Position numbers and translations under genes: made by a program. A DNA stretch of 64,000 bases, from NCBI GenBank assembly GCA_046330185.1, contig JAXLTF010000005.1, forward strand, positions 96,360 to 160,359, given 5' to 3'. This stretch comes from Actinomycetota bacterium. GTDB lineage: Bacteria > Actinomycetota > UBA4738 > HRBIN12. Shown here piece by piece: positions 8,130 through 48,880 of this stretch. Position 1 is the stretch's first letter. Each line of letters starts with the position of its first letter. The notes under the pieces are model-generated. The model searched no databases. It was not told the origin of the DNA and saw only the letters and a program-made list of their open reading frames with translations.

Positions 8130-9260
8130 CGAGAGACGCCGACCTCCCTGCCGTCGTGATCAGCGCCGGCCAAGCCGGCCTGGCGACGAGCCACGAGCTC
8201 TCCGCCGCCGGGGTCGATCACGTGGTGCTGGAACGCGACCGGGTGGGCTCATCCTGGGGCCGGCCTGTGGGACAGCTTCCGGATCAACACGCCGAACTGG
8301 CCCATCCGGCTGCCGGGCGCCACCCGACGACGACGAACCCGACGGCTTCCTGAGCCGGGCGGAGATCGTCGATCACCTCGAGCGGTACGTCGCGCGGTGA
8401 TGCCGAGGTCCGCCGAGGCGTGGATGTCTCTTCCTGGAGCCCGCTCGCGACGGGTTCGTCCTGGACTTCTCCGACGGACCGCTGAGGACCCGGGCGGTCG
8501 CCGTCTGCACCGGCGCGTACCAAGCGGCCTACATGCCACTGGCGCCGATGCTCTCCGCGGCTGGACCTCCCGGTGCTCGACACGCGCGCCTACCGGAACC
8601 CGATCCCTGCCCGACGGAAGGGTGCTGATCATCGGGAGCGGGCAGTCCGGCCCCCAGATCGCCGAGGACCTGGTCGGCGCCGGCCGCGACGTGATCGTGT
8701 CGTGCGGCAAGGCCCCGTGGGGCCCTCGACGGATCCGGGACCAGGACGTCGTGTGGTGGGCGATCGAGACGGGGTTCCTCGCTCAGACGGCGGCGGAGCT
8801 CCCATCTCCGGTCGCGCGTCTGACCGCGAACATCACCGCGAGCGGCGTCGACGGCGGCCTCGACCTCCATCTGCGGACGCCTGGGACCAGTGTCGCGCTC
8901 GCGGGCCACCTCGTCGCGGTGGATGGGACCCGGGTGCGCTTCGCGGACGATCATGCAGGAGAGCGTCGCCTGGGGCGACGCCCGGTACCTGGATCTCCGC
9001 AGGGACGTGATCGCGCTCTGTGACGGGCGGCGGCTCCCGGTGCCGCCCTGCCGTTCGACGATCAAGGGTTCCCCCGGCAAGTCAACGGTGCCAGCAGCAC
9101 GGCGCCTGGTCTGCTCTTCGTCGGCACGCACTTCCTCCGCAAGCGTCAGTCCTCGCTGCTCTACGGCGTCGGGGAGACGCGGCGATCGTGGCACGCGGGG
9201 TCGCCGGATCGGCCCCGCGGGGGTGCATCGCGCCGGTCGAGGCGCAGCGCGGGGCCGCTC
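8130..9260 (+). pseudogene. flavin-containing monooxygenase (CzcO/ArsO-like NAD(P)/FAD oxidoreductase) disrupted by multiple frameshifts
   Basis: Family motifs are spread over all three + frames: [28 protein letters not shown]; [19 protein letters not shown]; [17 protein letters not shown]; AVCTGAYQAAYMPLAP; VLIIGSGQSGPQIAEDLVGAGRDVIVS; GLLFVGTHFLRKRQSSLLYGVGE; GVGRDAAIVARGVAG. Confidence 0.6.
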
Positions 9261-10556
9261 GGCCCCGACGCCGCGCCGCCGCGGACCTTGCCGGCGACCG
9301 GGAGCGCTCCAAGATCACGACCGCCGTCCTTTCATGCGGACGCCTGGCGTACCCGTCCAGGCGTTCCGGGTCTCGCGCCAACGCTGCCACAACCGCTCGC
9401 GCTCCCCCACTTCGCGGCTCGGCCGAGAACCTCGCGCCGCACCCCGCCGGCGAGCTCCACGCACGCCGCCGGGTTGGCCTGCAGGTTCAGCCACCAGGCA
9501 GGCTCCGCGCGCCCCAGCTGCCATCGCCATCGAGACCAGGTTCGGTCCGTCCTCGTAGTAGCCCACGATCACGCTACGCGGCTCACCGCTGCGCTGACCG
9601 GTCGTCGTGAGTCGCAAGGCCCCACTCCTGCCCTGGACGTAGGTGTCACAGGCCCCTGCGTGTCCCTTGGTCGCCCGCACGAGCCTCCGGTGGACGCCAG
9701 AACGACACCATGAACCACCGCGGCGGCAGGCGACCCTTGCCCGTGTCTCTCACCGTGGTCGCATCCCTCATCTCGCTCACCTCGTTCCACCTCACCGAGA
9801 TCGTTCCATGGCTGGCCCGCTCGCCCCAGGGTCTCCTGTCCCACCCGGCCCGGGTCACCCGGGCATCCCACGTCGGTTCACCGCGGGATCGAGCCCGCCT
9901 CCGCCCGGGCGCCGCTCACGATCCGGAAGGCGATCGGTTCGGGCGCGACGGGACCCTGATCGAACGTCTCTGCGCCCGAGAGCCCTCCTCCCCTCCCGCA
10001 CGTGTCTCGGGAGGATGACCTCACGCGCACTTCATGTTATGGTTCGTGCATGAAGTGTTACTTCAGTCGGGGCTCGGATGGATCGAGCCGAGGCCACCTG
10101 GGAGGTGGACGCATGCATGGGATGACGGCCCAGGCGTATCGGTGGGGCTACGGCCGCTTCGGCGGACGGAGCGAACGGCCCGTCGCGGGACGCCCGCGGC
10201 TCCGGCCCGCCGCCGGTCGAACGAGCGCCCGCCCGTGATCTCGGGGGCGGGATCGATGGTCCCGGATCTCGGAGTTGCTCGCGGTCGGGCGCTCCGGCCC
10301 GCTGGGTGGTCGGGGACCCCGAGCTGAGTGGTCGCACGAGTGGGGGTGGAGGATCAGATGGCGAAGTTCGAAGGAAGGGTAGGGCCCGGCGGCGCGGCAC
10401 GGTATCGGACGCCGTCGCCTCGTGGCGACCGGCCCGCTCATGGCGACCGGCGGCCGCCGATGCCCGCGTTCCCCGCATCGCCCCGGCAGGCGCTCCGACG
10501 CTGCCGGCCATCAAGCCGAAGGCTGCCTGAGCGCGGGTTCCGCGGCCCGACGTGGA

Positions 10557-10591
10557 GGCTGCGTCAGGGCTCGATGCATCTTCGAGCCCTG
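10557..10591. other. GC-rich hairpin (14-bp perfect stem GCGTCAGGGCTCGA / TCGAGCCCTGACGC, about 7-nt loop) 36 nt upstream of the regulator gene
   Basis: Read directly from the sequence; no downstream T-tract. Confidence 0.4.
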
Positions 10592-10627
10592 ACGCGCTCG
10601 ACGGTGAGCGGGCGACCGTCCCTATAG

Positions 10628-11896
10628 TTGCCCGACATGGCTCGCCCCAGCACCGGCCTGCGCCCCATCGACGACCTGATCGGCGGCGTGCGGGTCGGTG
10701 ACAACCTGGTGTTCTCCACCAGCCAAGATGTCCCGGTGGACGGGTTCGTCTCGGCCTTCATCCGCGCGTCGGCAGAGGCAGCCGGCCTGGCCTACGTGAG
10801 CTCGCACGTGGCGCCGAGCGCCGTGCTCGAGCGTTTCGCCGAGGATTGGGGCACCGCTCCTACCGTCCTGGTCGACTGCTACACGGATGGCCTGGGAGGC
10901 TCCGACCCCGCGTTCGAACGCTTCTACCGATCGAGGCGGACCCGAGGTGGCCCCCGGGTGCACCGCATGCGCGACGTCGCTGACCCCGAGGGTGTGCGCA
11001 CGTCGATGGCCGGGCTCGAGGACGAGCTGGGACCGAACACGCGATACGTGTTCGACAGCTTGACCGGCCTGCAGGAGATGTGGGGAACGCACGAGGCGCT
11101 GTCGTTCTTCCTCAGGTCGTGCCCGCGGCTGTACGAGCTGCGCACGGTCGCGCTGTGGCTCGTCGACCACGGGGCGCACGATCGATCGTTCCTGTCGCGA
11201 CTCGCGCGGGTGACGCAGGTCCTGGTCCGCATCGAGGCCGACGACGAGGGCATGGCGCTGCGTGTGATCAAGGCCGAGGGGCGTCCCCCGGGGGTCACCG
11301 GCAGGCGCGCGCACATCCGGTTCGAGGACGGCGGGGCCAGCCTCATCCGCGAGGAGGGACCCGGGACCAAGGAGAGGGTCGGCGCGGCCCTGCGTGAGAG
11401 CCGCCGGGCGCGCGGGCTCTCCCAGGCCGAGCTGGCGCGCCGCATCGGCATCAGCCCGAGCGCGCTCTCGCAGGCGGAGCGAGGCGCGGCGGGCCTGTCG
11501 GGGACCACCCTGACCCGCGCCTGGCAGGAGCTCGGCACCCCGTTCGGGGAAGCGGTCCTCCCGCTGACCTCCTCCTACCGGGTGGCCCGACGTGGCGCCA
11601 GGCCCACCCGTGCGATCGGTCCAGGCGTCGCGGCGGAGGAGATCGCCGACGGTTCGGGGTCCGCGGGCGTGCACCTGGTGCGGTTCGCGCCGGGGGCGGC
11701 TGGGCGCAGGGCGCCCTTCGCCACCAAACGCGGGGAGGTCATCTTCGTCACGTCGGGGGTCCTCGAGCTTCGGATCGGCGAGGGCACGGAGACCCTGCAG
11801 GCCGGGGACGCCGTCGAGGTCGCGACGGAGACGATCACCGGTTGGAGGAACCTCGCGCCGGTCGAGACGGTCGCGGTCTGGACGATCCTCCCGTGA
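10628..11896 (+). CDS. three-domain regulator: N-terminal KaiC/RecA-like domain (no P-loop), central XRE-type HTH, C-terminal cupin
   Basis: N-terminus LRPIDDLIGGVRVGDNLVFSTSQDV resembles KaiC/RadA G.P.LD.LLGGGLP but lacks GxxxxGKT; HTH LRESRRARGLSQAELARRIGISPSALSQAERG; cupin-like C-terminus GEVIFVTSGVLELRIGEGTETLQAGDAVEV. Confidence 0.65.
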   Translation: MPDMARPSTGLRPIDDLIGGVRVGDNLVFSTSQDVPVDGFVSAFIRASAEAAGLAYVSSHVAPSAVLERFAEDWGTAPTVLVDCYTDGLGGSDPAFERFYRSRRTRGGPRVHRMRDVADPEGVRTSMAGLEDELGPNTRYVFDSLTGLQEMWGTHEALSFFLRSCPRLYELRTVALWLVDHGAHDRSFLSRLARVTQVLVRIEADDEGMALRVIKAEGRPPGVTGRRAHIRFEDGGASLIREEGPGTKERVGAALRESRRARGLSQAELARRIGISPSALSQAERGAAGLSGTTLTRAWQELGTPFGEAVLPLTSSYRVARRGARPTRAIGPGVAAEEIADGSGSAGVHLVRFAPGAAGRRAPFATKRGEVIFVTSGVLELRIGEGTETLQAGDAVEVATETITGWRNLAPVETVAVWTILP

Positions 11897-11935
11897 CCAC
11901 GGACGATCCGCGATCCGGCGGAAGCGGCGAGCCGG

Positions 11936-13561
11936 CTATCCGAGACGCCGCGGAGCATTCCTCCATCTCGAGTCCCGCTCGATCTGACGGAAGCAGTTCG
12001 CCGCAGGTATCCCGCTGACCCCGCCCCCCGCGTGCGTGGCCGAGCTCGCGTGGTAGAGGCCGCGGATGGGCGTCCGGTAGTCCGCGTAACCGGGAGCCGG
12101 ACGCATGTGGAAGAGCTGATCGGGCGTGAGCTCGCCATGGAAGATGTTGCCGCCGACGAGCCCGAGCTCCTCCTGCATGTCCCAGGGACCGACGACCTGT
12201 CGCGCGATGACCGACCCCTTGAACCCCGGAGCGATCTGGTCGTAGCCATCGATCACCCGATCCGCGAAGGCCTCGAGCTCGTCGGTGTGACGTTCCTCGG
12301 CCCAGGATAGGGGGGCCCACTGGGCGAACATCGACATGATGTGGACGCCCTCAGGAGCCATCGTGCGGTCCCCCCATGTGGGGATCACACCGTCGCAGAA
12401 GGGATGCTCGGCCCCACGTCCCTCGCGAGCGTCCTGGAACGCCCGTTCGATGTAGGCGGGCGAGAAGCCCAGGGCCGAGGACGCCATGTGGTGCTCCTGC
12501 AGGTGGGAGCCGGGATCGGCCCTGTAGCTCGGGAGCTTCGAGATGGCGCAGTTCACCTTGACGACACCCGATCGCGTTCGCCAGCGCTCGACGTCGCGCA
12601 CGAAGTCCGCCGGCAGCTCGGTTCGCTCCAGGAGCTCGAGGAAGGCGATCTTCGGGTGGATGCACGTGACGACCACCGGAGCGGATATCTCCTCGCCCGT
12701 GTGGAGCGCAACACCCGTCGCTCGCCCGTCCCGCGTGAGGATCCTGCCGACCCGTGCCTCGACCCGGACCTCCGCCCCGAACGCCTCCGCGGCACGGCGG
12801 CACGCGTCGGAAACCGCCCCCATGCCCCCCTCGGGGAAGCTGAAGCCGCAGATCTCGCCGGCCACGTCGCCGATCGCGTGGTGCAGCATCACGTACGCGG
12901 TCCCCGGCTCCGCCGGCCCGGCCCAGGTGCCGATGACGCTGTTGAGGGCCAGCATGCCCTTGACCTGCTCCGACTCGAACCACTCGTCGAGCAGATCGAT
13001 CGCGCTCATGGTGAAGAGCCTGGTGACGTCGGCCACGCCGCGCACCCCGAGCCCACGCAGCTTCCACGCCGTTCGCGCGGTCTCCACCAGATCGCCCGGC
13101 GCGAGGGAGCCGAGCCTCGGCGGGACCGCTCGTTGGAGTGGGCCGAGGACCGCGGCCACCCCGCCCAGCCAGGCCTCCCACTCACCCATCGTTTCGGCAT
13201 CCCGCTTCGAGAACCTGGCGATCGATGCCCGGCTCTTCGCGGCGTCGTTCGCGTACACCTTCACCGAGCTGCCGTCGGGGTACGCCTGATAGAAGAGGTC
13301 GAAGCCCGACGCCCTGTAGCCGTGCCGCTCGAGGTCGAGGGCGCGGATGATGGCGAGCGGCATCATCAGCATCGCGTAGGAGTACGTCGACACCCTGAAG
13401 TCGGGGTGCTCCGGCCATGGGCTGCTGGTGTCGGCCGCGCCTCCCACCTTGGACCTGGCCTCCAGCACCACCGTTCGCCGCCCGGTCCTCGCGAGGAACG
13501 CACCGGCGATCAGGCCGTTGTGGCCGGCGCCGATCACGATCGCGTCGTACCCGACCGTCAT
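11936..13561 (-). CDS. CrtI / phytoene-desaturase-family FAD-dependent oxidoreductase
   Basis: Start at internal Met gives MTVGYDAIVIGAGHNGLIAGAFLARTGRRTVVLEARSKVGG (FAD dinucleotide fold); about 540 aa; 22 nt downstream of the mttB-family gene; the upstream track ORF extension is R/P-rich junk. Confidence 0.7.
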   Translation of the reverse strand: MTVGYDAIVIGAGHNGLIAGAFLARTGRRTVVLEARSKVGGAADTSSPWPEHPDFRVSTYSYAMLMMPLAIIRALDLERHGYRASGFDLFYQAYPDGSSVKVYANDAAKSRASIARFSKRDAETMGEWEAWLGGVAAVLGPLQRAVPPRLGSLAPGDLVETARTAWKLRGLGVRGVADVTRLFTMSAIDLLDEWFESEQVKGMLALNSVIGTWAGPAEPGTAYVMLHHAIGDVAGEICGFSFPEGGMGAVSDACRRAAEAFGAEVRVEARVGRILTRDGRATGVALHTGEEISAPVVVTCIHPKIAFLELLERTELPADFVRDVERWRTRSGVVKVNCAISKLPSYRADPGSHLQEHHMASSALGFSPAYIERAFQDAREGRGAEHPFCDGVIPTWGDRTMAPEGVHIMSMFAQWAPLSWAEERHTDELEAFADRVIDGYDQIAPGFKGSVIARQVVGPWDMQEELGLVGGNIFHGELTPDQLFHMRPAPGYADYRTPIRGLYHASSATHAGGGVSGIPAANCFRQIERDSRWRNAPRRLG

Positions 13562-13583
13562 CAGCGGGCCGGCGACCGCCCGA

Positions 13584-15023
13584 TCATCGATCGACCGCGA
13601 CGGGCGCGGCACGGCGAGCATCGACGACGTCGCGCATCCCCGACAACACGTCCTCGGGCAACGGCTCCACGGCGTGCGATCCCCAGACCTCGAAGACCTT
13701 GGCCCGCGCCCGATCCCCGAGCGTGGTCGAGCCATCGGCCGACCACGACATCCTCGACCCCCAGCTGATCACGGACGGGAGCCAGAGCTCTCGGAAGCGC
13801 TCGCGCGTGTGACGCTCCCCCAGGAACTGCCCTCCGGGCCCGACCGCACGGATGGTGTCGAGGGCGATCGCCTCGTCGCTGACGTCGAACGGCGTGACCG
13901 CGACCCTGACCATGTCCGCGACCTCGTCGGCGATCACCAACAGCTCGGGCGAGAAGAGCAGGCCGCCCTCGATGCAGCCGGCATCGAAGACCAGATCCGC
14001 TCCCGCGAGGGTCGCGCCGAGCCCGTAGTAGGCAGCCTCCAGCGCCGCCTGCTCATCGAGCAGCTTGGAGTCGCCCCCGAAGCTCACGCCGACGGAGGGG
14101 AGCCCCCAGCGACGGCAGAGCTGTCCCATCGCCACCGTGAACCTGAACCCGTCGGGACCCCCCGTCGTGACGTTCCCGCTCCGCATGTCCATCAGGAACG
14201 GCACCGTGCCGCTGATGAACGGAACCCCGGGGGACCTGAGCTGCGCGAGCACCAGGCCCATGAGCGTCTCCGCCGCTGAGATCACGAGGGTCCCGGCGAT
14301 CGTCGCCGGCCCGGTCGCGCCCACCTGCGGTGCCGCCTGGCAGCACACCGGGAGTCCCCGGTCGGCCGCCACGAACACCTTGTCCACCGTCTCGGGATTG
14401 AACACGAGCGGCGAGACGGAGTTCAGGTAGGGCACGACGAACGGCCGCTCGCGCAGGGCGTCGCGGCCCCCCGCCACGAGCTCGGCCATGTCGTAGATGT
14501 CCCGGAGCTCCGTGCCCCCGGCGATCAGGACCATCAGCGGCTTGGTCGTGTTCGTGACCATCTCCACGAACTCGCACTGGTTCACGATGTGGATCGGCAG
14601 CTCCTCGGAGGGGCGGGTCACGCCCGGGGTCGCGACGAAGTCGATGTGGGCGAGCGCATCGGCCAGACGCGTGGACTCGCCCGTGGCCCGGAGGCTGAAG
14701 TCCTCCACCTCGCCCGTGCGAGGATCGAGGTAGTTGAGGTTCGTGACGCCCATCCCGACGTAGACGTTGCCCTCACCAAGTCGCAGCGCGGGCCCGCCGT
14801 TCCGATCGAAGATCGAGAACCGGGACGGCGCCGACGCCAGCGCTCGTTCGACCAGATCGGGCGACAGGCGGACGATCTCCCCTTCGAGGGTCGACCCGTG
14901 GTCGGCGAGGAGCTCCCGTCCCTCCCGGGACATGATCCGAACGCCCACCTCGGACAGGACCACGATCGCGGCCGCATGCAGTCGCTCCAGGGCATCGTTC
15001 GACAGGAGCTCCAGCGTCGTCAC
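13584..15023 (-). CDS. MttB-superfamily (trimethylamine methyltransferase family) corrinoid-dependent methyltransferase, non-pyrrolysine type
   Basis: From a GTG near 15023: TTLELLSNDALERLHAAAIVVLSEVGVRI..., with family-length ~479 aa and TIM-barrel-like conserved blocks; no in-frame amber codon; first 162 aa of the track ORF are R/P/S-rich junk. Confidence 0.75.
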   Translation of the reverse strand: MTTLELLSNDALERLHAAAIVVLSEVGVRIMSREGRELLADHGSTLEGEIVRLSPDLVERALASAPSRFSIFDRNGGPALRLGEGNVYVGMGVTNLNYLDPRTGEVEDFSLRATGESTRLADALAHIDFVATPGVTRPSEELPIHIVNQCEFVEMVTNTTKPLMVLIAGGTELRDIYDMAELVAGGRDALRERPFVVPYLNSVSPLVFNPETVDKVFVAADRGLPVCCQAAPQVGATGPATIAGTLVISAAETLMGLVLAQLRSPGVPFISGTVPFLMDMRSGNVTTGGPDGFRFTVAMGQLCRRWGLPSVGVSFGGDSKLLDEQAALEAAYYGLGATLAGADLVFDAGCIEGGLLFSPELLVIADEVADMVRVAVTPFDVSDEAIALDTIRAVGPGGQFLGERHTRERFRELWLPSVISWGSRMSWSADGSTTLGDRARAKVFEVWGSHAVEPLPEDVLSGMRDVVDARRAAPVAVDR

Positions 15024-15128
15024 GCCCGGATGCTGCGTCGAAGCCGGGCGGTCCCGGCAGGGACCAATGGCCCTGTGGAGGGGGGACCGATGGACCCTAC
15101 CGCGGAGGCGGAGCGGGCCACAGGGTCG

Positions 15129-15158
15129 CTTCCGCGGCGCCGGCTTCCGCGGCGCCGG
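15129..15158. repeat. perfect 15-bp tandem duplication CTTCCGCGGCGCCGG x2 in the divergent mttB / corrinoid-protein intergenic region
   Basis: Read from the sequence (..gcttccgcggcgccggcttccgcggcgccggcg..). Confidence 0.5.
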
Positions 15159-15180
15159 CGACCGCCGATAGGACACGAGT

Positions 15181-15855
15181 GTGGACGACGACGAGCTGTT
15201 CAAGGCGATGACCCGGAGCATCCTCGACGGGGAAGCCGAGGTCGCGGCCGAGCTCGCTCGTCGATCCCTGGACGAGGGGATCGACCCCCTCGAGGCCATC
15301 GACCGAGGCTTCCTGCCGGGCGTGACGGAGGTCGGTGACGACTTCGGGGCGGGTCTCGCGTTCCTTCCCGAGCTCGTGATGGCGGGGGCGGCGATGAAGG
15401 CGGCGATCGCCGTCCTCGAACCGGAGATGATCGCCCGAGGGACCTCGCGGGAGCGGTTCGGAACCGTGGTGCTCGCGACGGTCCGGGGCGACGTCCACGA
15501 TATCGGCAAGAGCCTGGTCGGGACGATCCTGACGGCTCACGGGTTCCGGGTGGTCGACCTCGGCGTCGACGTGGCGCCCGAAGCCATCGTCGACGCGGTC
15601 CGCAGCGAAGGGGCCGACATCGTCGGGCTGTCTTCGCTCCTGACGACGACGATGCCCGCGCAGGCGGAGACGATCCGCGCCCTGGAGGCCGCCGGACTCC
15701 GCTCGCGCGTGAAGGTCCTGGTCGGCGGCGCGCCCGTCACGCTCGGATGGGCCCAAGAGGTGGGAGCGGACGCGTACGGCGAGGACGCGTCGGTCGCGGT
15801 CGCCACCGCTCGCCGCCTGCTGAGGCCCGGCGAGGGAACCGACCCGGCAACCTGA
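15181..15855 (+). CDS. corrinoid (B12-binding) protein, MtbC/MttC-like
   Basis: N-terminal helical cap followed by a B12-binding Rossmann domain with the DVHDIGK motif (TVRGDVHDIGKSLVGTIL); 224 aa; divergent from the MttB-family gene. Confidence 0.85.
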   Translation: MDDDELFKAMTRSILDGEAEVAAELARRSLDEGIDPLEAIDRGFLPGVTEVGDDFGAGLAFLPELVMAGAAMKAAIAVLEPEMIARGTSRERFGTVVLATVRGDVHDIGKSLVGTILTAHGFRVVDLGVDVAPEAIVDAVRSEGADIVGLSSLLTTTMPAQAETIRALEAAGLRSRVKVLVGGAPVTLGWAQEVGADAYGEDASVAVATARRLLRPGEGTDPAT

Positions 15856-15895
15856 GCCGACCGAGACCCTCGACCGGTTCCGCGTCTTTCGCGGG

Positions 15896-16165
15896 CTACC
15901 TCTTGACGTACACGACCATCGTCGAGGGGATCATCCCGGCTCGCGCCGCCGCCGCCGCCACGTCCTCGGACAGGGAACCCTGGGCCGCCTGGAAGGCCTC
16001 CATGTCGGTGACGTCCCACGTGCTGGCCACCTGGTTCGAGCCGTCCACGGCGACGTAACTGGCTCCGTCCGACGCGACCTCCGACAACGCGGGGACCAGC
16101 TCCGCCTTGAACCTCAGCCACTCCTCCACATCGTTGACGGCTGCGGTGACGATGATCTGCGGCAT
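15896..16165 (-). CDS. hypothetical small protein (89 aa from an internal Met)
   Basis: MPQIIVTAAVNDVEEWLRFKAELVPAL...; GGAAGGAG-like ribosome-binding site upstream; the upstream ORF extension is R/G-rich. Confidence 0.4.
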   Translation of the reverse strand: MPQIIVTAAVNDVEEWLRFKAELVPALSEVASDGASYVAVDGSNQVASTWDVTDMEAFQAAQGSLSEDVAAAAARAGMIPSTMVVYVKR

Positions 16166-16305
16166 CGCGGGTCTCCTTCCGAACGCCTGGAAGCGGTACC
16201 GGCCTGCACAGCGGCCGGTTCGAGGATCGAGTCTACGCGTCGGTCCGTGGACCGTTCGACCACCACCGGGGCGCTGATCATCCGGCACCGCTGTCTCGGT
16301 GCCCG

Positions 16306-16545
16306 TTACACGGCTCCTCGATCGAACACCACCGCACCGTCCACCATCGTGAGGTCCACGCGCGTCCCTCCGATCTCATCCACCGGTCCCGCGACGAGGT
16401 TCCGGTCAAGCGTGATGTGATCCAGATCGTTCACGTAGGCCGATCCCATCGTGAAGGCGGCGATGGCCGTATGGAGATCGATCCGCTCCTCTCCGGCAGC
16501 AGGGACGTGGCCATCGACCAGGACCAGATCAGCTCCATCCGCCAT
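16306..16545 (-). pseudogene. amidohydrolase C-terminal remnant (about 79 aa)
   Basis: MADGADLVLVDGHVPAAGEERIDLHTAIAAFTMGSAYVNDLDHITLDRNLVAGPVDEIGGTRVDLTMVDGAVVFDRG resembles the C-terminal strand region of amidohydrolases (LGSLEVGKLANLVVL-type). It lies right after the stop of the intact amidohydrolase; the rest of the track ORF 16306..17304 overlaps that gene out of frame. Confidence 0.3.
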
Positions 16546-33137: not shown

Positions 33138-34027
33138 GCACCCGAGATCGGCGAGCCGCCACGGAGCTGCTGCCCGATCGCCTCCAGGCGCGCGATCCGC
33201 TCCTCGGTGGGCGGGTGCGTCGAGAACAGGTTCGCGAACCCACGGCCCTTCAGCGCAGCCATCGGGTTCATGATGAACAGGTGCGCCTCGGCTGGGCTCA
33301 CGCTGGACGGCGGCGGGACGCGCCGAACGCCCACCTCCAGCTTGCGGAGCGCGCCCGCCAGGGCCTCCGGGTCGTGCGAGAGGTACGCCCCCGACTCGTC
33401 GGCCTGGTACTCACGAGAGCGCGAGACCGCCATCTGGATGATCGCGGCCGCGATCGGGGCGAGGATCCATGCGAACAGCACGCCGAAGGCGCCGAGCGGG
33501 TTGCCGCCTCGGTCGTCGTTCCCGCCGAAGAACAACGCGAACCGCGCGAGGAACGTGATGCTCATGCCGATCGCGGCCGCGATCGAGGAGATGAGGATGT
33601 CGCGGTTCGCGACGTGGGAGAGCTCGTGCGCGAGCACGCCGCGGAGCTCGCGCTCGTCGAGGAGCTCCAGGATCCCCGCGGTCACCGAGACGGCCGCGTG
33701 CTTGGGGTTGCGGCCCGTGGCGAACGCGTTGGGCTGGGTCATCGCCGAGACGTAGATCGCGGGCATCGGCATGCCGCGCGCCTGGGTCAGCTCTCGGACG
33801 ATCCGGTACAGGGCCGGCTGCTCCTGCTCGGTCACCGGCTTCGAACGGGTCGTCGCGATCGCGATCTTGTCCGAGAACCAGTACATGCCGAAGTTGAACA
33901 GCAGGGCGAACCCCAGGGCCCAGACGGCCCCGGAGGTGCCGCCGATCCAGGCGCCGATCAGGACGAACAGGCCGCCCAGGGCGGCGATCAGGATCCAGGT
34001 CTTGACCCGATTGATCCCGGGCTGCAC
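33134..34027 (-). CDS. htpX: zinc metalloprotease HtpX (M48 family)
   Basis: N-terminal TMs; HELSHVANRDIL (HExxH); second pair of TMs; 297 aa. Confidence 0.85.
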   Translation of the reverse strand: MQPGINRVKTWILIAALGGLFVLIGAWIGGTSGAVWALGFALLFNFGMYWFSDKIAIATTRSKPVTEQEQPALYRIVRELTQARGMPMPAIYVSAMTQPNAFATGRNPKHAAVSVTAGILELLDERELRGVLAHELSHVANRDILISSIAAAIGMSITFLARFALFFGGNDDRGGNPLGAFGVLFAWILAPIAAAIIQMAVSRSREYQADESGAYLSHDPEALAGALRKLEVGVRRVPPPSSVSPAEAHLFIMNPMAALKGRGFANLFSTHPPTEERIARLEAIGQQLRGGSPISGA

Positions 34028-34149
34028 GGTCGTTCCCCTCCTTCGGCCCGCGCGGTGCGCGGGTCATCCCGTACCGATGCTCTCACAGGCCCTTCGCTCC
34101 GCCGCCGACCCAGGTTCGCTCGCCGACCTGGGAGAACGCTGTGCGCCGC

Positions 34150-35619
34150 TCAGCTGCCGACCAGCGTCGAGATCCCCGCGGCGTCCGCGAACGGGGTCGG
34201 GAAGACGAACAGGGCCACGATCGCGATCGTCGCGAGGGCGACCACCGCGGTGACCAGCGCCGGCGACCTGAGCGGGGACTCGTCGACGGCCGGCTCGAAG
34301 ATCATCTCCCGCGGCACCGCCAGGTAGTAGTAGATGCTCACGACCGAGTTGATCAGCATGATCACCGCGAGCGAGAGGCCGAGCCCGCCGCCCCGGTCGA
34401 TGGCGACCCGGAAGATCAGGATCTTGGCCCAGAACCCGCCCGTCGGCGGGATCCCGGCCAGCGAGATCATGAACGTGGTCATCCCCACCGCCATCAGCGG
34501 AGCCGTCCGGATGAGCCCGGCGAAGTCCTTGAACAGCAGCAGTGGGTGACGGCGGCTGACCGCGGTCGCCACGGCGAACGCGCCCAGGTTCATCACGCCG
34601 TAGATCAGGATGTAGGCGACCGCCGCCGCGAACGCGTCCTTGTTCGTCGCGGCATCGTTCGTCACCAGCGCGAACGGGAGCAGCATGTAACCGGCCTGCG
34701 CGATACCGGAGTACGCGAGGAGCCGGACGACCTGGTTCTGCTGCAGCGCGACCAGGTTCCCCACCGACATCGTGGCGATCGAGAAGAACGCGAAGATCGG
34801 GACCCAGAACTCCCACTGCCCTATGAACGCCACGAACATCAGCTGCAGCAAGCCCGCGAAGCCCGCCGCCTTCGATGCCACCGCGAGGAACGCGGCGACC
34901 GGAACGGGGGCGCCCTCGTACGTGTCGGGGGCCCAGAACTGGAACGGGAACGCCGAGACCTTGAACGCGAACCCGACCACGACGAACAGGATCGCGGCCA
35001 GCGCCAGCGTCTCCTGGTCCGAGGGGAGGTTCCCCAGCCTGGCGGCGATCGCGGACAGGCCGGTCTCGCCGCGGGTCACGCCGTAGATGAGGCTCATCCC
35101 GAACAGCATCACGGCGGTCGACAGGACGCCGATCAGGAAGAACTTGAGCCCGCCCTCGTTCCCAAGCGGGTCCGCCTTGCGGAAGGCGGCCATCAGGAAG
35201 CCCGGGGCGGAGACCAGCTCGAGCGAGATGAACAGCAGCAGCAGGTCGCGGCTGGCCGGCATCAGCATGCAGCCCAGGAACGAGGTGAGCAGGAGGAAGT
35301 AGTACTCGCCCTGGTAGAAGCCTCCCTCCCGGAAGTAGCGGAGAGAGATCGCGAGCACCACGATCGCGACGACCAGGAAGAAGATCTGGAACAGCACCGC
35401 GAAGTTGTCGACGACGAACGTGCCTCCGAACGTCTCGCGCGGGAGGCTCCCCAGGAGGGTGAGCTCCGCGATCAGCGTCGCGACGACGCCGATCATCGAC
35501 AGCGGCATCGCGAGCCACTTGCGTTGAGGGGAGAGGAAGACGTCGACGACCAGGACCACGACGATGGTCCCGGACAGGATCAGCTCGGGCAGGATCGCGT
35601 GGTAGTCGATCGCGCTCAT
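34150..35619 (-). CDS. nuoN: NADH-quinone oxidoreductase subunit N (partial cluster 1)
   Basis: 489 aa antiporter-like subunit; MSAIDYHAILPELILSG. Confidence 0.9.
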   Translation of the reverse strand: MSAIDYHAILPELILSGTIVVVLVVDVFLSPQRKWLAMPLSMIGVVATLIAELTLLGSLPRETFGGTFVVDNFAVLFQIFFLVVAIVVLAISLRYFREGGFYQGEYYFLLLTSFLGCMLMPASRDLLLLFISLELVSAPGFLMAAFRKADPLGNEGGLKFFLIGVLSTAVMLFGMSLIYGVTRGETGLSAIAARLGNLPSDQETLALAAILFVVVGFAFKVSAFPFQFWAPDTYEGAPVPVAAFLAVASKAAGFAGLLQLMFVAFIGQWEFWVPIFAFFSIATMSVGNLVALQQNQVVRLLAYSGIAQAGYMLLPFALVTNDAATNKDAFAAAVAYILIYGVMNLGAFAVATAVSRRHPLLLFKDFAGLIRTAPLMAVGMTTFMISLAGIPPTGGFWAKILIFRVAIDRGGGLGLSLAVIMLINSVVSIYYYLAVPREMIFEPAVDESPLRSPALVTAVVALATIAIVALFVFPTPFADAAGISTLVGS

Positions 35620-35647
35620 CGGCGGCTCCCGGGGGCATCGGCCACGT

Positions 35648-37174
35648 CTACGCTCCGAACAACCCCATCAGCGACGCGACGGCGCTGTCGGTGACCCCGA
35701 ACACCAGCCGGGGGAACAGCCCCAGCACCAGGATCCCGACGAGCAGCGGGAGCCACGCGAGCCACTCGACCGTGAGGATGTCGCTGAACGGATGCTCCCG
35801 CCAGTTCTCCGGCATCACGCCCAGGTTCACCCGCTGGAGCATCCACAGGAAGTACCCCGCGGTCAGGATCGTCCCGATCCCGCCCGCGATCATGAACGCG
35901 CGGAACAACGCGACGTTCAGCCCCGGGCCGGGCTCGAACGAGGACAGCAGGGCCATGACCTCGCCCCAGAACCCGGCCAGGCCGGGGAGACCCAGGGACG
36001 CGATCGCGACGAACGCGAATATCCCGGCGAGCCTGGGCATCTTCTGGGCCATCCCGCCGCCGATGACCGCGATCTCTCGCGTGTGGTAGCGGTCGTAGAT
36101 GGACCCGACGCAGAAGAAGAGCATCCCCGTGATCACGCCGTGGGCGACCATGCCGAAGATCGCCGCCTGGATCCCGATCTCGGTGAGCGTCGCGATCCCG
36201 AGCATCACGAACCCCATGTGTCCGACGGAGGAGAACGCGATCAGGCGCTTCAGGTCCTTCTGCGCGAGGCACGCCAGGGCCGCGTAGACGATGGCGATCG
36301 CCGCCAACCCTCCGATCCAGGGCGCGTACGCCTGCGCGCCCTCGGGCAGGACCGGCAGCGCGATCCGGATGAACCCGTAGGTGCCCATCTTCAGCATGAT
36401 CCCGGCCAGCAGGACGGAGCCGATGGTGGGGGCCTCCGTGTGCGCGTCGGGCAGCCACGTGTGGAACGGCCACATCGGCACCTTGACGGCGAACCCGAGC
36501 GCCACCGCCCCGAACACGATCAGCTGGAACGTGTGGCTGAACCCGCCGCCGGCGCCGAACTCGGTCAGCCGTACCAGGTCGAAGGTGTGCGGCTCCGGAC
36601 CCTGGAAGTACATCGCCAGGAACCCCAGCAGCATGAAGATCGACCCAAGCAGGGTGTACAGGAAGAACTTGATCGCCGCGTACTCGCGGTTCGACGACCC
36701 CCAGATCCCGATCAGGAAGTACATCGGGACCAGCACCATCTCCCAGAAGACGAAGAACAGGATGAGGTCGAACGCGATGAACGTCCCGGCCATGCCGGTC
36801 TCGAGCAGCAGCATCAGGGCGATGAAGGCCTTGGTGCGGCCCGGGTCCGGCACGTACTTCCAGGTGTAGATCGCGCAGAGGAACGACAGGACGAAGGTCA
36901 GCACGTACAGCGGCATCGAGATGCCGTCGATCGCGACGTGGTAGCGGGCGCCGATCGCCGGGATCCACGGGACGTCGAGCGTGAACTGGAGCCCTCCGTG
37001 CGCGTAGTCGAAGCCCGCGGCGATCGCGATCGCCAGGACCAGGGCGGCGCCGCTGATGCCGATCCCCAGGCCGCGGGTCAGCCGATCCTTCTCCTTAGGG
37101 ATGAACATGATCACCAACGCGCCCGCCACGGGCAGCAGCGTGGTGATCGTGATCGCCGACTCCTGCCAGTTCAT
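35648..37174 (-). CDS. nuoM: NADH-quinone oxidoreductase subunit M (cluster 1)
   Basis: 508 aa; MNWQESAITITTLLPVAGALVIMFIPKEK. Confidence 0.9.
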   Translation of the reverse strand: MNWQESAITITTLLPVAGALVIMFIPKEKDRLTRGLGIGISGAALVLAIAIAAGFDYAHGGLQFTLDVPWIPAIGARYHVAIDGISMPLYVLTFVLSFLCAIYTWKYVPDPGRTKAFIALMLLLETGMAGTFIAFDLILFFVFWEMVLVPMYFLIGIWGSSNREYAAIKFFLYTLLGSIFMLLGFLAMYFQGPEPHTFDLVRLTEFGAGGGFSHTFQLIVFGAVALGFAVKVPMWPFHTWLPDAHTEAPTIGSVLLAGIMLKMGTYGFIRIALPVLPEGAQAYAPWIGGLAAIAIVYAALACLAQKDLKRLIAFSSVGHMGFVMLGIATLTEIGIQAAIFGMVAHGVITGMLFFCVGSIYDRYHTREIAVIGGGMAQKMPRLAGIFAFVAIASLGLPGLAGFWGEVMALLSSFEPGPGLNVALFRAFMIAGGIGTILTAGYFLWMLQRVNLGVMPENWREHPFSDILTVEWLAWLPLLVGILVLGLFPRLVFGVTDSAVASLMGLFGA

Positions 37175-37193
37175 CGGTGCCTCACGCTCCCTC

Positions 37194-39161
37194 TCACGCG
37201 ATCCTCACGAACACGATCGTCAGCGCGATCACGCCCACGAACAGCGCCACCGCGTACCACTGCACGTTGCCGCTCTGGATGAACCGGAGCGCGGCGCCGA
37301 AGCCGCGCGTCACCTGGCCGGCGCCGTTCACCGCGCCGTCGATGACGTTGCGGTCGAACCAACCGATCGCGCCGGACGCGCGGCGCGTGACGTGCGCGGC
37401 CCCGTTCACGATGCCGTCCAGCACGTGCTGGTTGAACCAGTAGGCCCCCGCCGAGACCGAGTCGCGTATCGGGTAGACGATGCCCCTCAGGTAGACGTCG
37501 TCCAGGTAGTACTTGTGCTCCAGGATCCGCGAGAGCGCGCCCAGCTCGAGCGTCGGGTCGGGGTCGCGGTACCTGCGGTACACGACGAAGCCCGCCACGG
37601 CTCCGGCCGCGGCCGCGGCCGTCGAGAGCAGCGCGACCCACGCCACGAAGCTGATCTCCTCCGGGTGCTCCAGGAAGACCCAGTCGAAGAACACGGCGCC
37701 GGTCGCCGCGGCCCCCAGGAGCCCGACGAACAGCGTGGCGCCGGCCAGCGCGACCAGGGGCCCGGTCATCGAGGCGGGCGACTCGTGCGGATGCGCCTCG
37801 CCCCGGTACTCGCCCGTGAACGTCATCATCACCATGCGGGCGGTGTAGAAGGCCGTGAGGAGCGCCGTGATCACGAAGACCGCGAAGGCGACCTCGTGTC
37901 CGACGGAGGCGGCCACCAGCAGCTCGTCCTTCGACCAGAAGCCCGCGAGCGGCGGGATCCCCGCCAGGGCGAGCGACCCGATCGCGAAGGTCCAGAACGT
38001 GATCGGCATCGGGCGTCGCAGGCCGCCCATCTCGCGCATGTCGTTCGAGTGCACGGCGTGGATCACCGAACCAGCGCCCAGGAACAGGAGCGCCTTGAAG
38101 AAGGCGTGGGTGAACAGGTGGAAGAACGCGGCGTTGCGCCCGGCCTCTCCTAGCGACATCGCGAGCACCATGTATGCGAGCTGCGAGACCGTCGAGTACG
38201 CCAGGACCTTCTTGATGTCGAACTGGACCAGGGCAAGCAACGCGGCGCCGAGCATCGTGATGCCGCCAACGATGCCGACCACCTGCAGCACGAACGGGTC
38301 GGCTTCCAGGAAGACCTGGAACATGCGGCCCACCAGGTAGACGCCGGCGGCGACCATCGTGGCGGCATGGATCAGCGCCGAGACGGGCGTGGGCCCCGCC
38401 ATCGCGTCGGGGAGCCAGACGTGCAGCGGGAACTGGGCCGACTTGCCGATCGTGCCGCCGAACAGCAACAGCGCCGCGGCCGAGACCAGGGCCGGAGACA
38501 CGGCCGGTCCGCCGACCAGCTCGGAGATGGCCTGGATGTTCGAGGTCGTGAACCCGGTCGCGAAGATCAGCGCGAAGATCCCGAACATGAACGGAACGTC
38601 GCCGACGCGGGTCGTGAGGAACGCCTTGATCGCTGCGCTCGAGTTCTCCTTCGCCTCGTACCAGTGGCCGATCAGCAGGTAGGAGCAGATGCCCATGACC
38701 TCCCAGCCGACGAGCAACTGGATCAGGTTGTCGGCGATCACGACGTTCAGCATCGCGCCGGTGAACATCGACAGGACCACGTAGAACCACGTGAACCGCA
38801 CGTCGCCGTGCATGTACCCGAGCGAATAGACGTGAACGCAGAGCGAGACCGAGGTGACGACGACCAGCATCACCGCGGTGAGGCCGTCGACGTACTGGCC
38901 GAGCTCGACGTGGAACGGGCCCACCGAGAACCAGGGGACGCTGCTGGCGTACACGCTGCCGCCCTGGACGAAATGCCAGAGCACGGCGAGCGACATCACG
39001 AACCCGGCGCCCACGGCCGCGATCCCGAAGCCGGAGCCCTTGCCGGGGGCGCGCTTGCCGAAGAACAGGATCAGGGCGGCCGACACGAACGGCAGCAGGG
39101 CTATCACCCAGGTGTACCGGATGATCCCGGAGGCGGCCTCGTGCGCGGTCTCGGCTACCAC
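37194..39161 (-). CDS. nuoL: NADH-quinone oxidoreductase subunit L (cluster 1), long form with C-terminal extension
   Basis: GTG start overlapping the nuoK stop; [23 protein letters not shown]-terminus; about 656 aa. Confidence 0.85.
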
Positions 39162-39457
39162 TTGAGCAGGTTCACCTCGTCCACGTTGATCGTCGCGCGA
39201 TTGCGGAACAGCAGGATCACGATCGCCAGGCCGATGCCGACCTCGGCGGCCGCAACGGCGATCACGCACCGCGCGCACACCTGACCCGTGATGTCGCCGA
39301 GCTGGGAGGCGAACGCGACCAGGTTCACGTTGACCGCGTTCAGCATCAGCTCGATCGACATGAGCACCATCACAGCGTTGCGGCGCGCCAGGACCCCGTA
39401 GACCCCGGCCGAGAACAGGAACGCCGAGAACATCAGCACGAGCGGCAGCCGGATCAC
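39155..39457 (-). CDS. nuoK: NADH-quinone oxidoreductase subunit K (cluster 1)
   Basis: About 100 aa from a GTG overlapping the nuoJ stop (GTGA); the upstream track ORF portion is R/P-rich. Confidence 0.8.
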
Positions 39458-39960
39458 GAGCCCTCGTCCTTGCGGGCCAGGACCACCGCGCCGATCAGGG
39501 CGGCCAGGAGCAGGAACGAGATCGCCTCGAACGGCAGGATGTAGGACCGGAACATCACGGACCCGATCTGCTCGGTAGTCGCGTGGGCGGGCTCGAACGC
39601 CCAGGCGTCCCCGCGGACGTCGAAGGCGTCCTGGATCATGAAGACCAGGCCGGCGAAGATCCCGATCCCGACGAGGGCCCCCAGCCACCGCCGCTGGTTG
39701 TCCAGCGCGTCACGGCCGATCGGCGCCTTCGTGAGCATCAGGCCGAACAGGAACAGGATCACGATCGCGCCCACGTAGATCAGGATCTGGACCCAGGCGA
39801 CGAACTCGGCCCCGAGGACCAGGTAGACGCCGCCCACCGAGAGCAACGACAGGACCAGGTACAGGGCGGCGTGGACGACGTTGCGGGCGGTCACGACCGC
39901 GATCGCCGATGCCGACCCGACCACGGCGAGGACGATGAACGCGTACTCCTGTCCCGACAC
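39454..39960 (-). CDS. nuoJ: NADH-quinone oxidoreductase subunit J (cluster 1)
   Basis: [43 protein letters not shown]; start approximate. Confidence 0.8.
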
Positions 39961-39962
39961 GC

Positions 39963-40514: not shown

Positions 40515-40536
40515 GACCCCTCCCTCCGACGCGTTC

Positions 40537-43961: not shown

Positions 43962-43965
43962 CGGC

Positions 43966-46963: not shown

Positions 46964-46967
<4 letters not shown>
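45414..46967 (-). CDS. nuoM: NADH-quinone oxidoreductase subunit M (cluster 2)
   Basis: GTG start ([16 protein letters not shown]) overlapping the nuoL2 stop; about 517 aa. Confidence 0.85.

Positions 46968-48873
<1,906 letters not shown>

Positions 48874-48880
<7 letters not shown>

What the first reader, a model, noticed from the sequence alone, without database searches (positions are those of the whole stretch)
10628..11896. Regulator combining a P-loop-less KaiC/RecA-like domain, an XRE HTH and a cupin
The N-terminal ~230 aa resembles KaiC/RadA-like ATPase cores (LRPIDDLIGGVRVGDNLVF) but has STSQDV where the Walker A GKT should be, which implies a non-catalytic sensor or oligomerisation module. 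It is fused to an XRE helix-turn-helix and a C-terminal cupin barrel. It lies convergent to the mttB/CrtI-like operon and may regulate it. The three-domain architecture looks uncommon.
Basis: partly seen in the sequence, partly recalled or inferred. Interest (0 to 1): 0.6.

Follow-up and report, generated by a model that had tools for sequence, protein, structure and literature searches.

The report
Dead-KaiC, XRE, cupin transcription regulator
[quoted passage not shown] It belongs to a large metagenome-only family whose conserved neighbour is a Gre-factor-like gene, not the mttB operon next to it here.

Summary
One gene (most likely ATG 10637 to stop 11896, 419 aa) encodes three domains. The N-terminal ~240 aa have a KaiC/RecA fold: Foldseek matches PH0284 with TM 0.75, plus Sso2452, FlaH and KaiC. 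An XRE helix-turn-helix follows (Pfam HTH_3, 6.9e-11), then a cupin barrel without metal ligands. The Walker A is absent in all 135 family sequences examined, and the catalytic Glu-Glu is replaced by H/R-V/L. The domain is therefore an inactivated KaiC ('iKaiC'), a concept already published for archaeal signalling. It carries its own G-D-N signature and matches no MEDS or DUF835 model.

The same N-domain heads GAF-sigma54 activators, histidine kinases, GGDEF-EAL proteins and ANTAR proteins, so it is a general input module. iKaiC-XRE-cupin is its most common architecture, so the combination is undescribed in the literature searched rather than rare.

The proposed link to the mttB/CrtI-like operon is not conserved (0 of 52 loci). 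About 33 of 52 actinobacterial loci instead have a divergent GreA/Rnk-like gene directly adjacent, but the window copy lacks it.

The most likely function is a ligand-responsive local repressor. The iKaiC domain probably provides oligomerisation or partner contacts. Interest is moderate: a new variant of a known kind.

The parts
10637..11896 (+). Regulator gene (419 aa from the ATG; the mechanical ORF starts at TTG 10628)
   Evidence: ORF list. GC3 frame plot. The identical 419-aa NCBI protein P0001 and more than 300 full-length homologues.
10637..11356 (+). Inactivated KaiC/RecA-like domain (iKaiC). It carries the signature STG..D..GG..GDN, a Walker-B-like YVFDSLT, CPRLY and TQV. It has no Walker A and no catalytic Glu pair.
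   Evidence: Foldseek hits to 2dr3, 2w0m, 4yds and KaiC. Profile hit to 2dr3. Motif census. Faint DUF7090 / KaiC Pfam hits.
11366..11545 (+). XRE-type helix-turn-helix (HTH_3) with a nearly invariant recognition region, ISPSALSQAERG
   Evidence: Pfam. PDB profile hits to ClgR, P22 C2, SinR and 434 repressor. Alignment A1.
11603..11887 (+). Cupin_2 beta-barrel lacking the His metal ligands. Invariant residues are P-F-x-T-K-x-x-E, G-D-A and W-x-N.
   Evidence: Pfam at 26.4 bits, with homologues above the cut-off. Matches to 1y9q and HppE. Alignment A1.
10623..10628 (+). -10-like hexamer TATAGT, with 8 nt between it and the ATG and no Shine-Dalgarno. This implies a leaderless or near-leaderless mRNA.
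   Evidence: Sequence. The same arrangement (TATAGT, TATGGT or TAGACT 7-8 nt before the ATG) occurs in the closest homologue loci, whereas the Nitriliruptoria clade has GGAGG Shine-Dalgarno sequences. It is not a full sigma-70 consensus.
10561..10595 (.). Perfect 14-bp inverted repeat GCGTCAGGGCTCGA / TCGAGCCCTGACGC with a 7-nt spacer, 42-76 nt upstream of the ATG. It is a candidate operator or a structural element, and its function is unproven.
   Evidence: the repeat finder. RNA fold z = -4.35 with no T-tail. Unique in the window. Not sequence-conserved in homologue loci, although other inverted repeats overlap their promoters.
10600..10620 (.). Small inverted repeat GACGGT-N9-ACCGTC abutting the -10 hexamer. 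It is positionally equivalent to the 10-12-bp inverted repeat at -44..-18 in L001, L011 and L012.
   Evidence: Sequence. Upstream comparison.

Best explanation
The gene encodes a cytoplasmic one-component transcription factor. A conventional XRE-HTH + cupin regulator has acquired an N-terminal inactivated KaiC-like (iKaiC) domain.

Shown:
- The fold and order of the three domains.
- Loss of Walker A and of the catalytic glutamates in every family member.
- Absence of the cupin metal ligands.
- Reuse of the same iKaiC module at the N-terminus of many other signalling proteins.
- A conserved actinobacterial linkage to a Gre-factor-like gene.

Inferred:
- The XRE domains bind a palindromic operator as a dimer and repress transcription locally, at the regulator's own promoter and, where present, at the adjacent Gre-like gene.
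- The metal-free cupin binds a small-molecule effector that relieves repression.
- The iKaiC domain cannot hydrolyse ATP. It acts as an input or assembly module, either driving higher-order (KaiC-like ring or dimer-of-dimers) assembly or docking a partner or ligand at the degenerate nucleotide site. This adds a second layer of control over DNA binding.
- In this genome the Gre-like partner is not adjacent, so the only target that can be proposed is autoregulation through the inverted repeats in the promoter region.
For: Architecture and fold.

Inactivation: PH0284 'GPGTGKT' and 'EE' align to variable and HV positions; 0 of 135 with Walker A; 128 of 135 with the GDN signature.

One gene.

Module reuse: the N-domain profile finds 796 representative clusters. 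These include GAF-sigma54 activators, GAF-HisKA_3 kinases, PAS-GGDEF-EAL, GAF-ANTAR, PPDK_N and PAS-DUF835 proteins, all with GDN and without a P-loop. Of 105 representatives, 69 carry HTH_3 and 46 carry Cupin_2.

Published background: iKaiC is a recognised signalling domain class (PMC5847659, citing Makarova et al. 2017 mBio). XRE-cupin factors are dimeric, palindrome-binding local repressors of neighbouring genes (PMC7901475).

Context: a Gre-like gene is adjacent in about 33 of 52 loci, either divergent or co-directional at 95-400 bp. It is a divergent GreA/GreB/Rnk paralogue (Pfam GreA_GreB).

Promoter: leaderless-type promoter and promoter-overlapping inverted repeats.
Against: - No operator is demonstrated. 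The promoter-proximal inverted repeats differ in sequence between loci although the HTH recognition region is almost invariant, which argues against them being the shared operator.
- The window copy has no Gre-like neighbour, and non-actinobacterial members have other contexts. The Gre link may therefore be lineage-specific synteny rather than a regulatory relationship.
- The oligomeric state was not predicted. A pTM of 0.58 means the inter-domain arrangement is uncertain.
- Repression rather than activation is inferred only by analogy with Pseudomonas XRE-cupin factors.
- Conserved residues around the former nucleotide site (D143, T196-Q197, R163/R167) leave open non-canonical ligand binding.
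Confidence: 0.6

Rival explanations
1. It is the dedicated regulator of the convergent CrtI-like oxidoreductase / MttB-family methyltransferase / corrinoid-protein cluster, sensing a methylamine or betaine-type substrate through the cupin.
For: Physical adjacency: the CrtI-like gene ends 40 bp after the regulator, with MttB and a B12-binding protein beyond it. XRE-cupin factors usually control neighbouring metabolic genes (PMC7901475). A sibling strain keeps the regulator/CrtI-like junction.
Against: MttB lies near a homologue in 0 of 52 loci, the CrtI-like gene only in the 98%-identical sibling, and a corrinoid protein once at 2.9 kb. The orientation is convergent, so there is no shared control region. 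The 15-bp tandem repeat in the mttB/corrinoid intergenic region has no counterpart near the regulator, and the hairpin half-site does not recur.
Confidence: 0.12
2. The iKaiC domain is primarily a ligand sensor. It binds a nucleotide, nucleotide-derived second messenger or phosphorylated metabolite at the remodelled P-loop pocket, rather than acting as an oligomerisation or docking module. On this reading the protein integrates two small-molecule signals, one through iKaiC and one through the cupin.
For: Invariant residues sit around the former active site: the Walker-B Asp D143, the sensor-like T196-Q197, R163/R167 and the new G-D-N motif immediately before beta-1. The module occupies the N-terminal 'input' position in kinases, sigma54 activators, GGDEF-EAL and ANTAR proteins, alongside GAF/PAS. 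MEDS, another iKaiC, was proposed as a small-molecule sensor (cited in PMC5847659).
Against: The loop that replaces the P-loop is hypervariable (positions 30-37), which is unexpected for a conserved ligand site. No ligand is predicted. The conserved residues could equally form a subunit interface.
Confidence: 0.25
3. It is an active KaiC-like ATPase or autokinase fused to a DNA-binding domain, working as a clock-like or GvpD-like regulator.
For: KaiC fold. JGI labels some homologues 'KaiC/GvpD/RAD55 family RecA-like ATPase'. The Walker-B Asp is retained.
Against: No Walker A in 0 of 135 sequences. Catalytic Glu-Glu is replaced by H/R-V/L. The KaiC Pfam model is not reached by the window protein.
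Confidence: 0.03
4. It is a mobile-element, toxin-antitoxin or defence-associated XRE repressor, or an artefactual fusion of two genes.
For: XRE domains are common in such systems. PADLOC and NCBIfam give weak HTH-only matches to antitoxins and control proteins. A DUF4386+TetR indel lies just upstream in sibling strains.
Against: Matches are confined to the HTH. Neighbourhoods are housekeeping or metabolic. The coding signal is continuous and full-length conservation spans hundreds of sequences and two phyla.
Confidence: 0.03

Closest known systems
iKaiC: inactivated KaiC-like signalling domains (MEDS PF14417, DUF835 PF05763; Makarova, Galperin & Koonin 2017, as summarised in PMC5847659)
   Same: KaiC/RecA-like fold with a lost P-loop. 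It is used as a module fused to PAS, GAF, REC, kinase and HTH domains in signal-transduction proteins. One relative found here even combines this N-domain with DUF835 in an archaeon.
   Different: No match to the MEDS or DUF835 Pfam models at E<=1. It has its own G-D-N / YVFDSLT / CPRLY / TQV signature. It is predominantly bacterial (Actinomycetota, Planctomycetota). Fusion to XRE-HTH + cupin was not described in the literature I could search.
Single-domain KaiC-like RecA-superfamily ATPases: PH0284 (2dr3), Sso2452 (2w0m), archaellum ArlH/FlaH (4yds, 4wia) and KaiC itself
   Same: Best structural matches (TMt 0.6-0.75). Shared N-terminal 'STGI..LD..LGG' motif and Walker-B Asp.
   Different: Those proteins bind ATP through a canonical GxxGxGKT and have catalytic glutamates. 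This domain has neither and is fused to a DNA-binding output.
XRE-cupin transcription factors (ErfA, PsdR, PauR, PuuR; structure 1y9q)
   Same: The C-terminal 175 aa have the same HTH_3 + Cupin_2 arrangement and match 1y9q in both sequence profile and fold. These factors are dimeric local repressors that sense small molecules through the cupin (PMC7901475).
   Different: Those proteins are about 180-200 aa two-domain proteins. This family has an extra 240-aa iKaiC domain at the N-terminus. Its conserved neighbour is a Gre-factor-like gene rather than enzymes or transporters.
Pfam DUF7090 (PF23365) and DUF7125 (PF23442)
   Same: Faint, sub-threshold matches over parts of the N-domain in the window protein and several homologues. 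They are probably related KaiC-derived domains.
   Different: Never above the gathering score (14-20 bits against 27-29). No functional information exists for these DUFs, and no papers mention them.

Membership tests
KaiC/RecA-like ATPase (Pfam PF06745, COG0467) | RecA-like alpha/beta core fold | tested here: met
   Foldseek: 2dr3 TMt 0.75 with rmsd 3.5 A, plus 2w0m, 4yds, 3bs4 and many KaiC chains, all with probability 1.00. The model's N-domain pLDDT is mostly 88-93.
KaiC/RecA-like ATPase (Pfam PF06745, COG0467) | Walker A P-loop GxxxxGK[ST] after beta-1 | tested here: not met
   0 of 135 family sequences have it. The equivalent positions 30-37 are hypervariable. PH0284 'GPGTGKT' aligns to 'e.easvd'.
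KaiC/RecA-like ATPase (Pfam PF06745, COG0467) | Catalytic glutamate(s) after beta-2 | tested here: not met
   PH0284 'YVALEEHP' aligns to family 'YVSFHVsP'. Positions 60-61 are H/R and V/L in all 30 aligned members.
KaiC/RecA-like ATPase (Pfam PF06745, COG0467) | Walker B hydrophobic strand ending in Asp | tested here: met
   Y140-V-F-D143 is invariant in A1.
KaiC/RecA-like ATPase (Pfam PF06745, COG0467) | Score above the Pfam gathering threshold | tested here: not met
   The window protein has no PF06745 hit at E<=1. 19 of 105 relatives hit at E<=0.001, and one (P0133) reaches 31.3 bits against a cut-off of 26.6.
iKaiC class (inactivated KaiC-like signalling domains) | KaiC-like fold with disrupted nucleotide-binding motifs, fused to signal-transduction or DNA-binding domains | tested here: met
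   Definition taken from PMC5847659.
MEDS (PF14417) / DUF835 (PF05763) | Match to the family HMM | tested here: not met
   Neither model appears for the window protein or for four homologues at E<=1. DUF835 appears only as a separate downstream domain in the archaeal relative P0232.
XRE-cupin transcription factors | HTH_3 (XRE) DNA-binding domain | tested here: met
   PF01381 at 42.5 bits against a cut-off of 23. PDB profile hits to ClgR, P22 C2 and SinR.
XRE-cupin transcription factors | C-terminal Cupin_2 barrel | tested here: met
   The window protein scores 26.4 bits against a cut-off of 27.2, which is marginal. Homologues score 28.6-41.6 bits. The predicted beta-barrel is confident, and 1y9q aligns through residue 397.
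XRE-cupin transcription factors | Two-domain protein of about 180-200 aa | tested here: not met
   419 aa with an additional 240-aa N-terminal domain.
XRE-cupin transcription factors | Dimeric palindrome binding and repression of adjacent genes | not testable with these tools
   Inverted repeats exist at the promoter, but binding cannot be tested in silico.
Metal-dependent cupins | His/Glu metal ligands of motifs G(X)5HXH(X)3-4E and G(X)5PXG(X)2H(X)3N | tested here: not met
   Motif 1 reads P-F-x-T-K-x-x-E and motif 2 ends W-x-N, with no conserved His, in all 30 aligned members.

The most novel reading that the evidence does not exclude
The GDN-type iKaiC domain is an unrecognised, widespread bacterial input or assembly module. 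In Actinomycetota, the iKaiC-XRE-cupin protein and the adjacent Gre-factor paralogue form a two-gene module. In this module a ring- or oligomer-forming repressor couples a metabolite signal to production of an RNA-polymerase secondary-channel factor. A small-molecule signal would then act on global transcription elongation or initiation rather than on a local catabolic operon.
Probability: 0.15. Interest if true: 0.65.

Novelty: new variant of a known kind. Interest (0 to 1): 0.42.

Why it matters
Inactivated KaiC domains have been proposed as signalling hubs, mainly in archaea, and none has a demonstrated mechanism. This family gives a bacterial iKaiC subtype that is sequence-distinct and not covered by Pfam. 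It recurs at the input position of kinases, sigma54 activators, c-di-GMP enzymes, ANTAR proteins and, most often, XRE-cupin regulators.

The XRE-cupin chassis is experimentally tractable through DAP-seq and EMSA. It offers a simple read-out for what an iKaiC domain does, whether oligomerisation, partner docking or ligand sensing. The conserved pairing with a Gre-like factor in Actinomycetota is a concrete, testable regulatory hypothesis.

For annotating this window, the practical point is negative: there is no evidence that this regulator controls the neighbouring mttB-type methyltransferase cluster.

Tried and rejected
- Single-sequence phmmer of the N-domain against the PDB found nothing. 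Only the profile gave PH0284, and weakly.
- Rfam scan of 9000-16500 gave only chance-level hits below gathering scores.
- Consensus promoter/terminator scan of 10000-12100 found nothing.
- A Gre-like gene in the window: tblastn with four Gre-like partners gave only noise. The best hit, at 61.4-61.5 kb, lies inside unrelated genes.
- A shared operator between the regulator's promoter and the mttB/corrinoid intergenic region: the hairpin half-site and the 15-bp repeat are unrelated, and neither recurs above chance.
- A conserved operator across homologues: promoter-proximal inverted repeats exist in several loci but differ in sequence, so none is claimed.
- PADLOC gave only generic HTH matches.
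- Makarova et al. 2017 (PMC5717392) is not held. The iKaiC concept is cited through PMC5847659.
- No model coordinates were exposed, so spatial clustering of invariant residues could not be computed.

Full report
**1. The observation**

The window is high-GC (about 0.70). The ORF 10628..11896 (+) is real. Its third-position GC is 0.85-0.97 from about 10630 to 11890 without interruption, while the 600 nt upstream (10000-10620) show no coding frame.

An identical NCBI protein (P0001, 'MAG: helix-turn-helix domain-containing protein [Actinomycetota bacterium]') is 419 aa, and every homologue aligns from the Met at residue 4 of the mechanical ORF. A -10-like TATAGT lies at 10623-10628 and overlaps the TTG. 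It leaves 8 nt before ATG 10637, and there is no Shine-Dalgarno sequence.

The closest homologue loci have the same arrangement: TATAGT, TATGGT or TAGACT 7-8 nt before the ATG. The Nitriliruptoria clade has GGAGG-type ribosome-binding sites instead. I therefore place the start at ATG 10637 on a leaderless or near-leaderless mRNA. This is an inference, because the full sigma-70 consensus scan finds nothing.

**2. Domains**

- Pfam gives HTH_3 at residues 255-306 (6.9e-11) and Cupin_2 at 350-416. The cupin scores 26.4 bits against a cut-off of 27.2.
- The first 245 residues give only a faint DUF7090 hit. NCBIfam sees only the HTH.
- An AlphaFold2 model built on a 30-sequence alignment is confident (mean pLDDT 85.8, N-domain mostly 88-93). 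A pTM of 0.58 means the relative domain placement is uncertain.
- In Foldseek against the PDB, the C-terminal half matches the XRE-cupin regulator 1y9q and HppE. The N-terminal half matches PH0284/2dr3 (TMt 0.75, rmsd 3.5 A), Sso2452, FlaH/ArlH, PH0321 and many KaiC chains, all with probability 1.00.
- A sequence profile of the N-domain independently finds PH0284 as its best PDB hit (E 0.011).
- In that alignment PH0284's 'GPGTGKT' falls on the family's variable segment, and its catalytic 'EE' falls on 'HV'.

**3. The inactivation is family-wide and the module is reused**

The motif counts below come from 135 collected sequences and the 30-sequence alignment A1.

| Feature | Result |
|---|---|
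| Walker A in 135 sequences | 0 |
| G-[DE]-N signature before beta-1 | 128 of 135 |
| P-loop-equivalent positions 30-37 | hypervariable |
| Catalytic Glu pair position | H/R-V/L |
| Walker-B-like Y-V-F-D143 | invariant in A1 |
| CPRLY and T196-Q197 | invariant in A1 |

The cupin lacks the canonical His ligands: motif 1 reads P-F-x-T-K-x-x-E and motif 2 ends W-x-N. It is therefore a non-metal cupin, presumably ligand-binding.

A profile search of 1.8 billion cluster representatives with the N-domain alone finds 796 clusters at E<=1e-3. The table shows what a Pfam scan of 105 of them found.

| Pfam domain | Clusters of 105 |
|---|---|
| HTH_3 | 69 |
| Cupin_2 | 46 |
| KaiC model (PF06745) | 19 |
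| GAF | 7 |
| PPDK_N | 5 |
| PAS | 4 |
| sigma54 activator domain | 3 |

Individual examples are N-domain-GAF-sigma54-HTH_8, N-domain-GAF-HisKA_3-HATPase, N-domain-PAS-GGDEF-EAL, N-domain-GAF-ANTAR, N-domain-PPDK_N and an archaeal N-domain-PAS-DUF835. All have GDN and lack a P-loop.

The domain is therefore a general N-terminal input or assembly module. iKaiC-XRE-cupin is its commonest architecture, so it is not a rarity in metagenomes. All members I could trace come from uncultured genomes: soil Actinomycetota bins, Nitriliruptoria and Planctomycetota.

**4. Genomic context**

In the window the regulator is convergent with a CrtI-like FAD oxidoreductase, 40 bp away. This is followed by an MttB-family methyltransferase and, divergently, a B12-binding corrinoid protein. 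That association is not conserved. The table counts neighbours across 52 loci that carry a homologue.

| Neighbour | Loci with it near the regulator |
|---|---|
| MttB | 0 of 52 |
| CrtI-like gene | 1 (a 98%-identical sibling strain) |
| Corrinoid protein | 1 (2.9 kb away) |
| GreA_GreB-domain gene (150-190 aa) | about 33 of 52 |

The position of the Gre-like gene varies by clade:

- It is divergent upstream in the window's own clade (L001, L003, L008, L010, L011, L012, L022, L023).
- It is co-directional upstream in two loci.
- It is 95-400 bp downstream on the same strand throughout the Nitriliruptoria.

These calls are supported by Pfam labels. NCBIfam places this partner as a divergent GreA/GreB/Rnk paralogue, far below every equivalog cut-off.

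The window copy lacks the partner. Compared with sibling strains, the window is also missing a 1.5-kb DUF4386+TetR segment at about 9924. Outside the Actinomycetota the linkage disappears. One member sits between a GAF-ANTAR gene and a GAF-kinase/sigma54-RR pair, and the Planctomycetota member overlaps the end of ligA.

**5. Candidate DNA sites**

- The hairpin is real: 14-bp perfect arms at 10561-10574 and 10582-10595 with a 7-nt spacer. It is thermodynamically strong (z = -4.35) but has no T-tail and is unique in the window.
- A smaller inverted repeat, GACGGT-N9-ACCGTC (10600-10620), abuts the -10 hexamer.
- L001, L011 and L012 have a 10-12-bp inverted repeat at the equivalent position (-44 to -18), and L023 has another at -41 to -10. 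The arm sequences differ between loci although the HTH recognition region is almost invariant. I do not claim any of them as the operator.
- The tandem repeat 2 x GCTTCCGCGGCGCCG (15128-15157) is real but unrelated to the hairpin, and it does not recur above chance.

**6. Mechanism**

Shown: a single polypeptide combines a dead KaiC-like domain, an XRE HTH and a metal-free cupin.

Inferred: XRE-cupin factors are dimeric, palindrome-binding local repressors whose cupin senses a small molecule (PMC7901475). By analogy, the C-terminal half most likely works this way, with autoregulation and, where present, control of the adjacent Gre-like gene.

The iKaiC domain cannot hydrolyse ATP. It consistently occupies the N-terminal input position of diverse signalling proteins, which suggests either an assembly module or a sensor. 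As an assembly module it would form KaiC-type oligomers or dock a partner. As a sensor it would use the remodelled nucleotide pocket. The hypervariable ex-P-loop favours the assembly reading. The invariant D143, T196-Q197 and R163/R167 keep the sensor reading open.

**7. Comparison with known systems and novelty**

Inactivated KaiC domains (iKaiC, including MEDS and DUF835) are an established class of signalling domain, described mainly for archaea (PMC5847659, citing Makarova et al. 2017). JGI's pipeline already labels some homologues 'XRE-family HTH / KaiC/GvpD/RAD55 family RecA-like ATPase'.

What is new is the subtype: the GDN signature, no MEDS or DUF835 match, no Pfam model, and a largely bacterial distribution. 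Also new are its fusion to XRE-cupin and the actinobacterial pairing with a Gre-factor paralogue. No paper mentioning DUF7090 or DUF7125 was found. I rate it a new variant of a known kind, of moderate interest.

**8. Verdict**

The structural interpretation is supported. The proposed regulatory target, the mttB/CrtI-like operon, is not supported. 'Uncommon' should read 'uncharacterised but abundant'.

Noticed in passing
window ~9924 (compare L005 623-2160): Sibling-strain contigs that carry the identical regulator (98% DNA identity) have an extra ~1.5-kb segment here encoding a DUF4386 protein and a TetR regulator. The window lacks it, so this is a strain-level indel just upstream of the regulator.
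   Followed up: partly
window 10248-10310: A conserved DNA block (GATCGATGGTCCCGGATCTCGGAGTTGCTCGCGGTCGGGCG...CTGG) aligns with blocks 70-100 nt upstream of the regulator in L001, L011, L022 and L008. In those loci it reads as the C-terminus of a called ~71-aa ORF (DRW.RI.EL..IGR.G..WF), with several synonymous differences. In the window that frame is broken by a TGA at 10236-10238, and the block lies ~340 nt from the start codon. It may be a small ORF, a regulatory site or a transcript element.
   Followed up: partly
window 10000-10620: About 600 nt of GC-rich sequence with no coding frame in the GC3 plot lie upstream of the regulator. The stretch contains a near-perfect direct repeat (CTCGTGGCGACCGGC / CTCATGGCGACCGGC at 10419 and 10437) and the 14-bp hairpin. 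Roughly 275 nt of it (10310-10600) are absent from the equivalent intergenic regions of homologue loci.
   Followed up: partly
window 15128-15157: Perfect tandem duplication of GCTTCCGCGGCGCCG in the divergent intergenic region between the MttB-family gene and the corrinoid-protein gene (start 15181). Each unit contains the palindromes CCGCGG and GGCGCC. It could be an operator for that cluster's own regulator and is unrelated to the hairpin near the XRE gene.
   Followed up: partly
window 8150-9200 (+): A flavin-monooxygenase-like gene (Pyr_redox_3/FMO-type N-terminus '[26 protein letters not shown]') appears split over at least two reading frames. The tblastn match switches frame between 8257 and 8268, and later pieces lie in other ORFs. 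It is either a pseudogene or an assembly error.
   Followed up: partly
window 13584-15509 (-): The mechanical MttB ORF is 641 aa, but the MTTB Pfam match begins at residue 161. The first ~160 codons overlap the corrinoid gene's control region and are probably not translated, so the real start is likely near 15030.
   Followed up: no
L066 1701-2996 and L067 2674-3969: In Planctomycetota MAGs the iKaiC-XRE-cupin gene overlaps the stop of NAD-dependent DNA ligase (ligA) by 4 nt. This suggests co-transcription with a replication/repair gene, a context quite different from that in Actinomycetota.
   Followed up: no
L064 4204-9530: A distant iKaiC-XRE-cupin member (P0137) is flanked by a divergent GAF-ANTAR gene and followed by a GAF-GAF histidine kinase and a sigma54-dependent response regulator, next to a glutamate-synthase-domain gene. 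This may be a nitrogen-related signalling cluster.
   Followed up: no
window 34000-50000: AT skew is unusually high (0.17-0.31) over about 16 kb compared with the rest of the window (mostly within +/-0.1). This suggests a long run of genes on one strand or compositionally distinct DNA.
   Followed up: no
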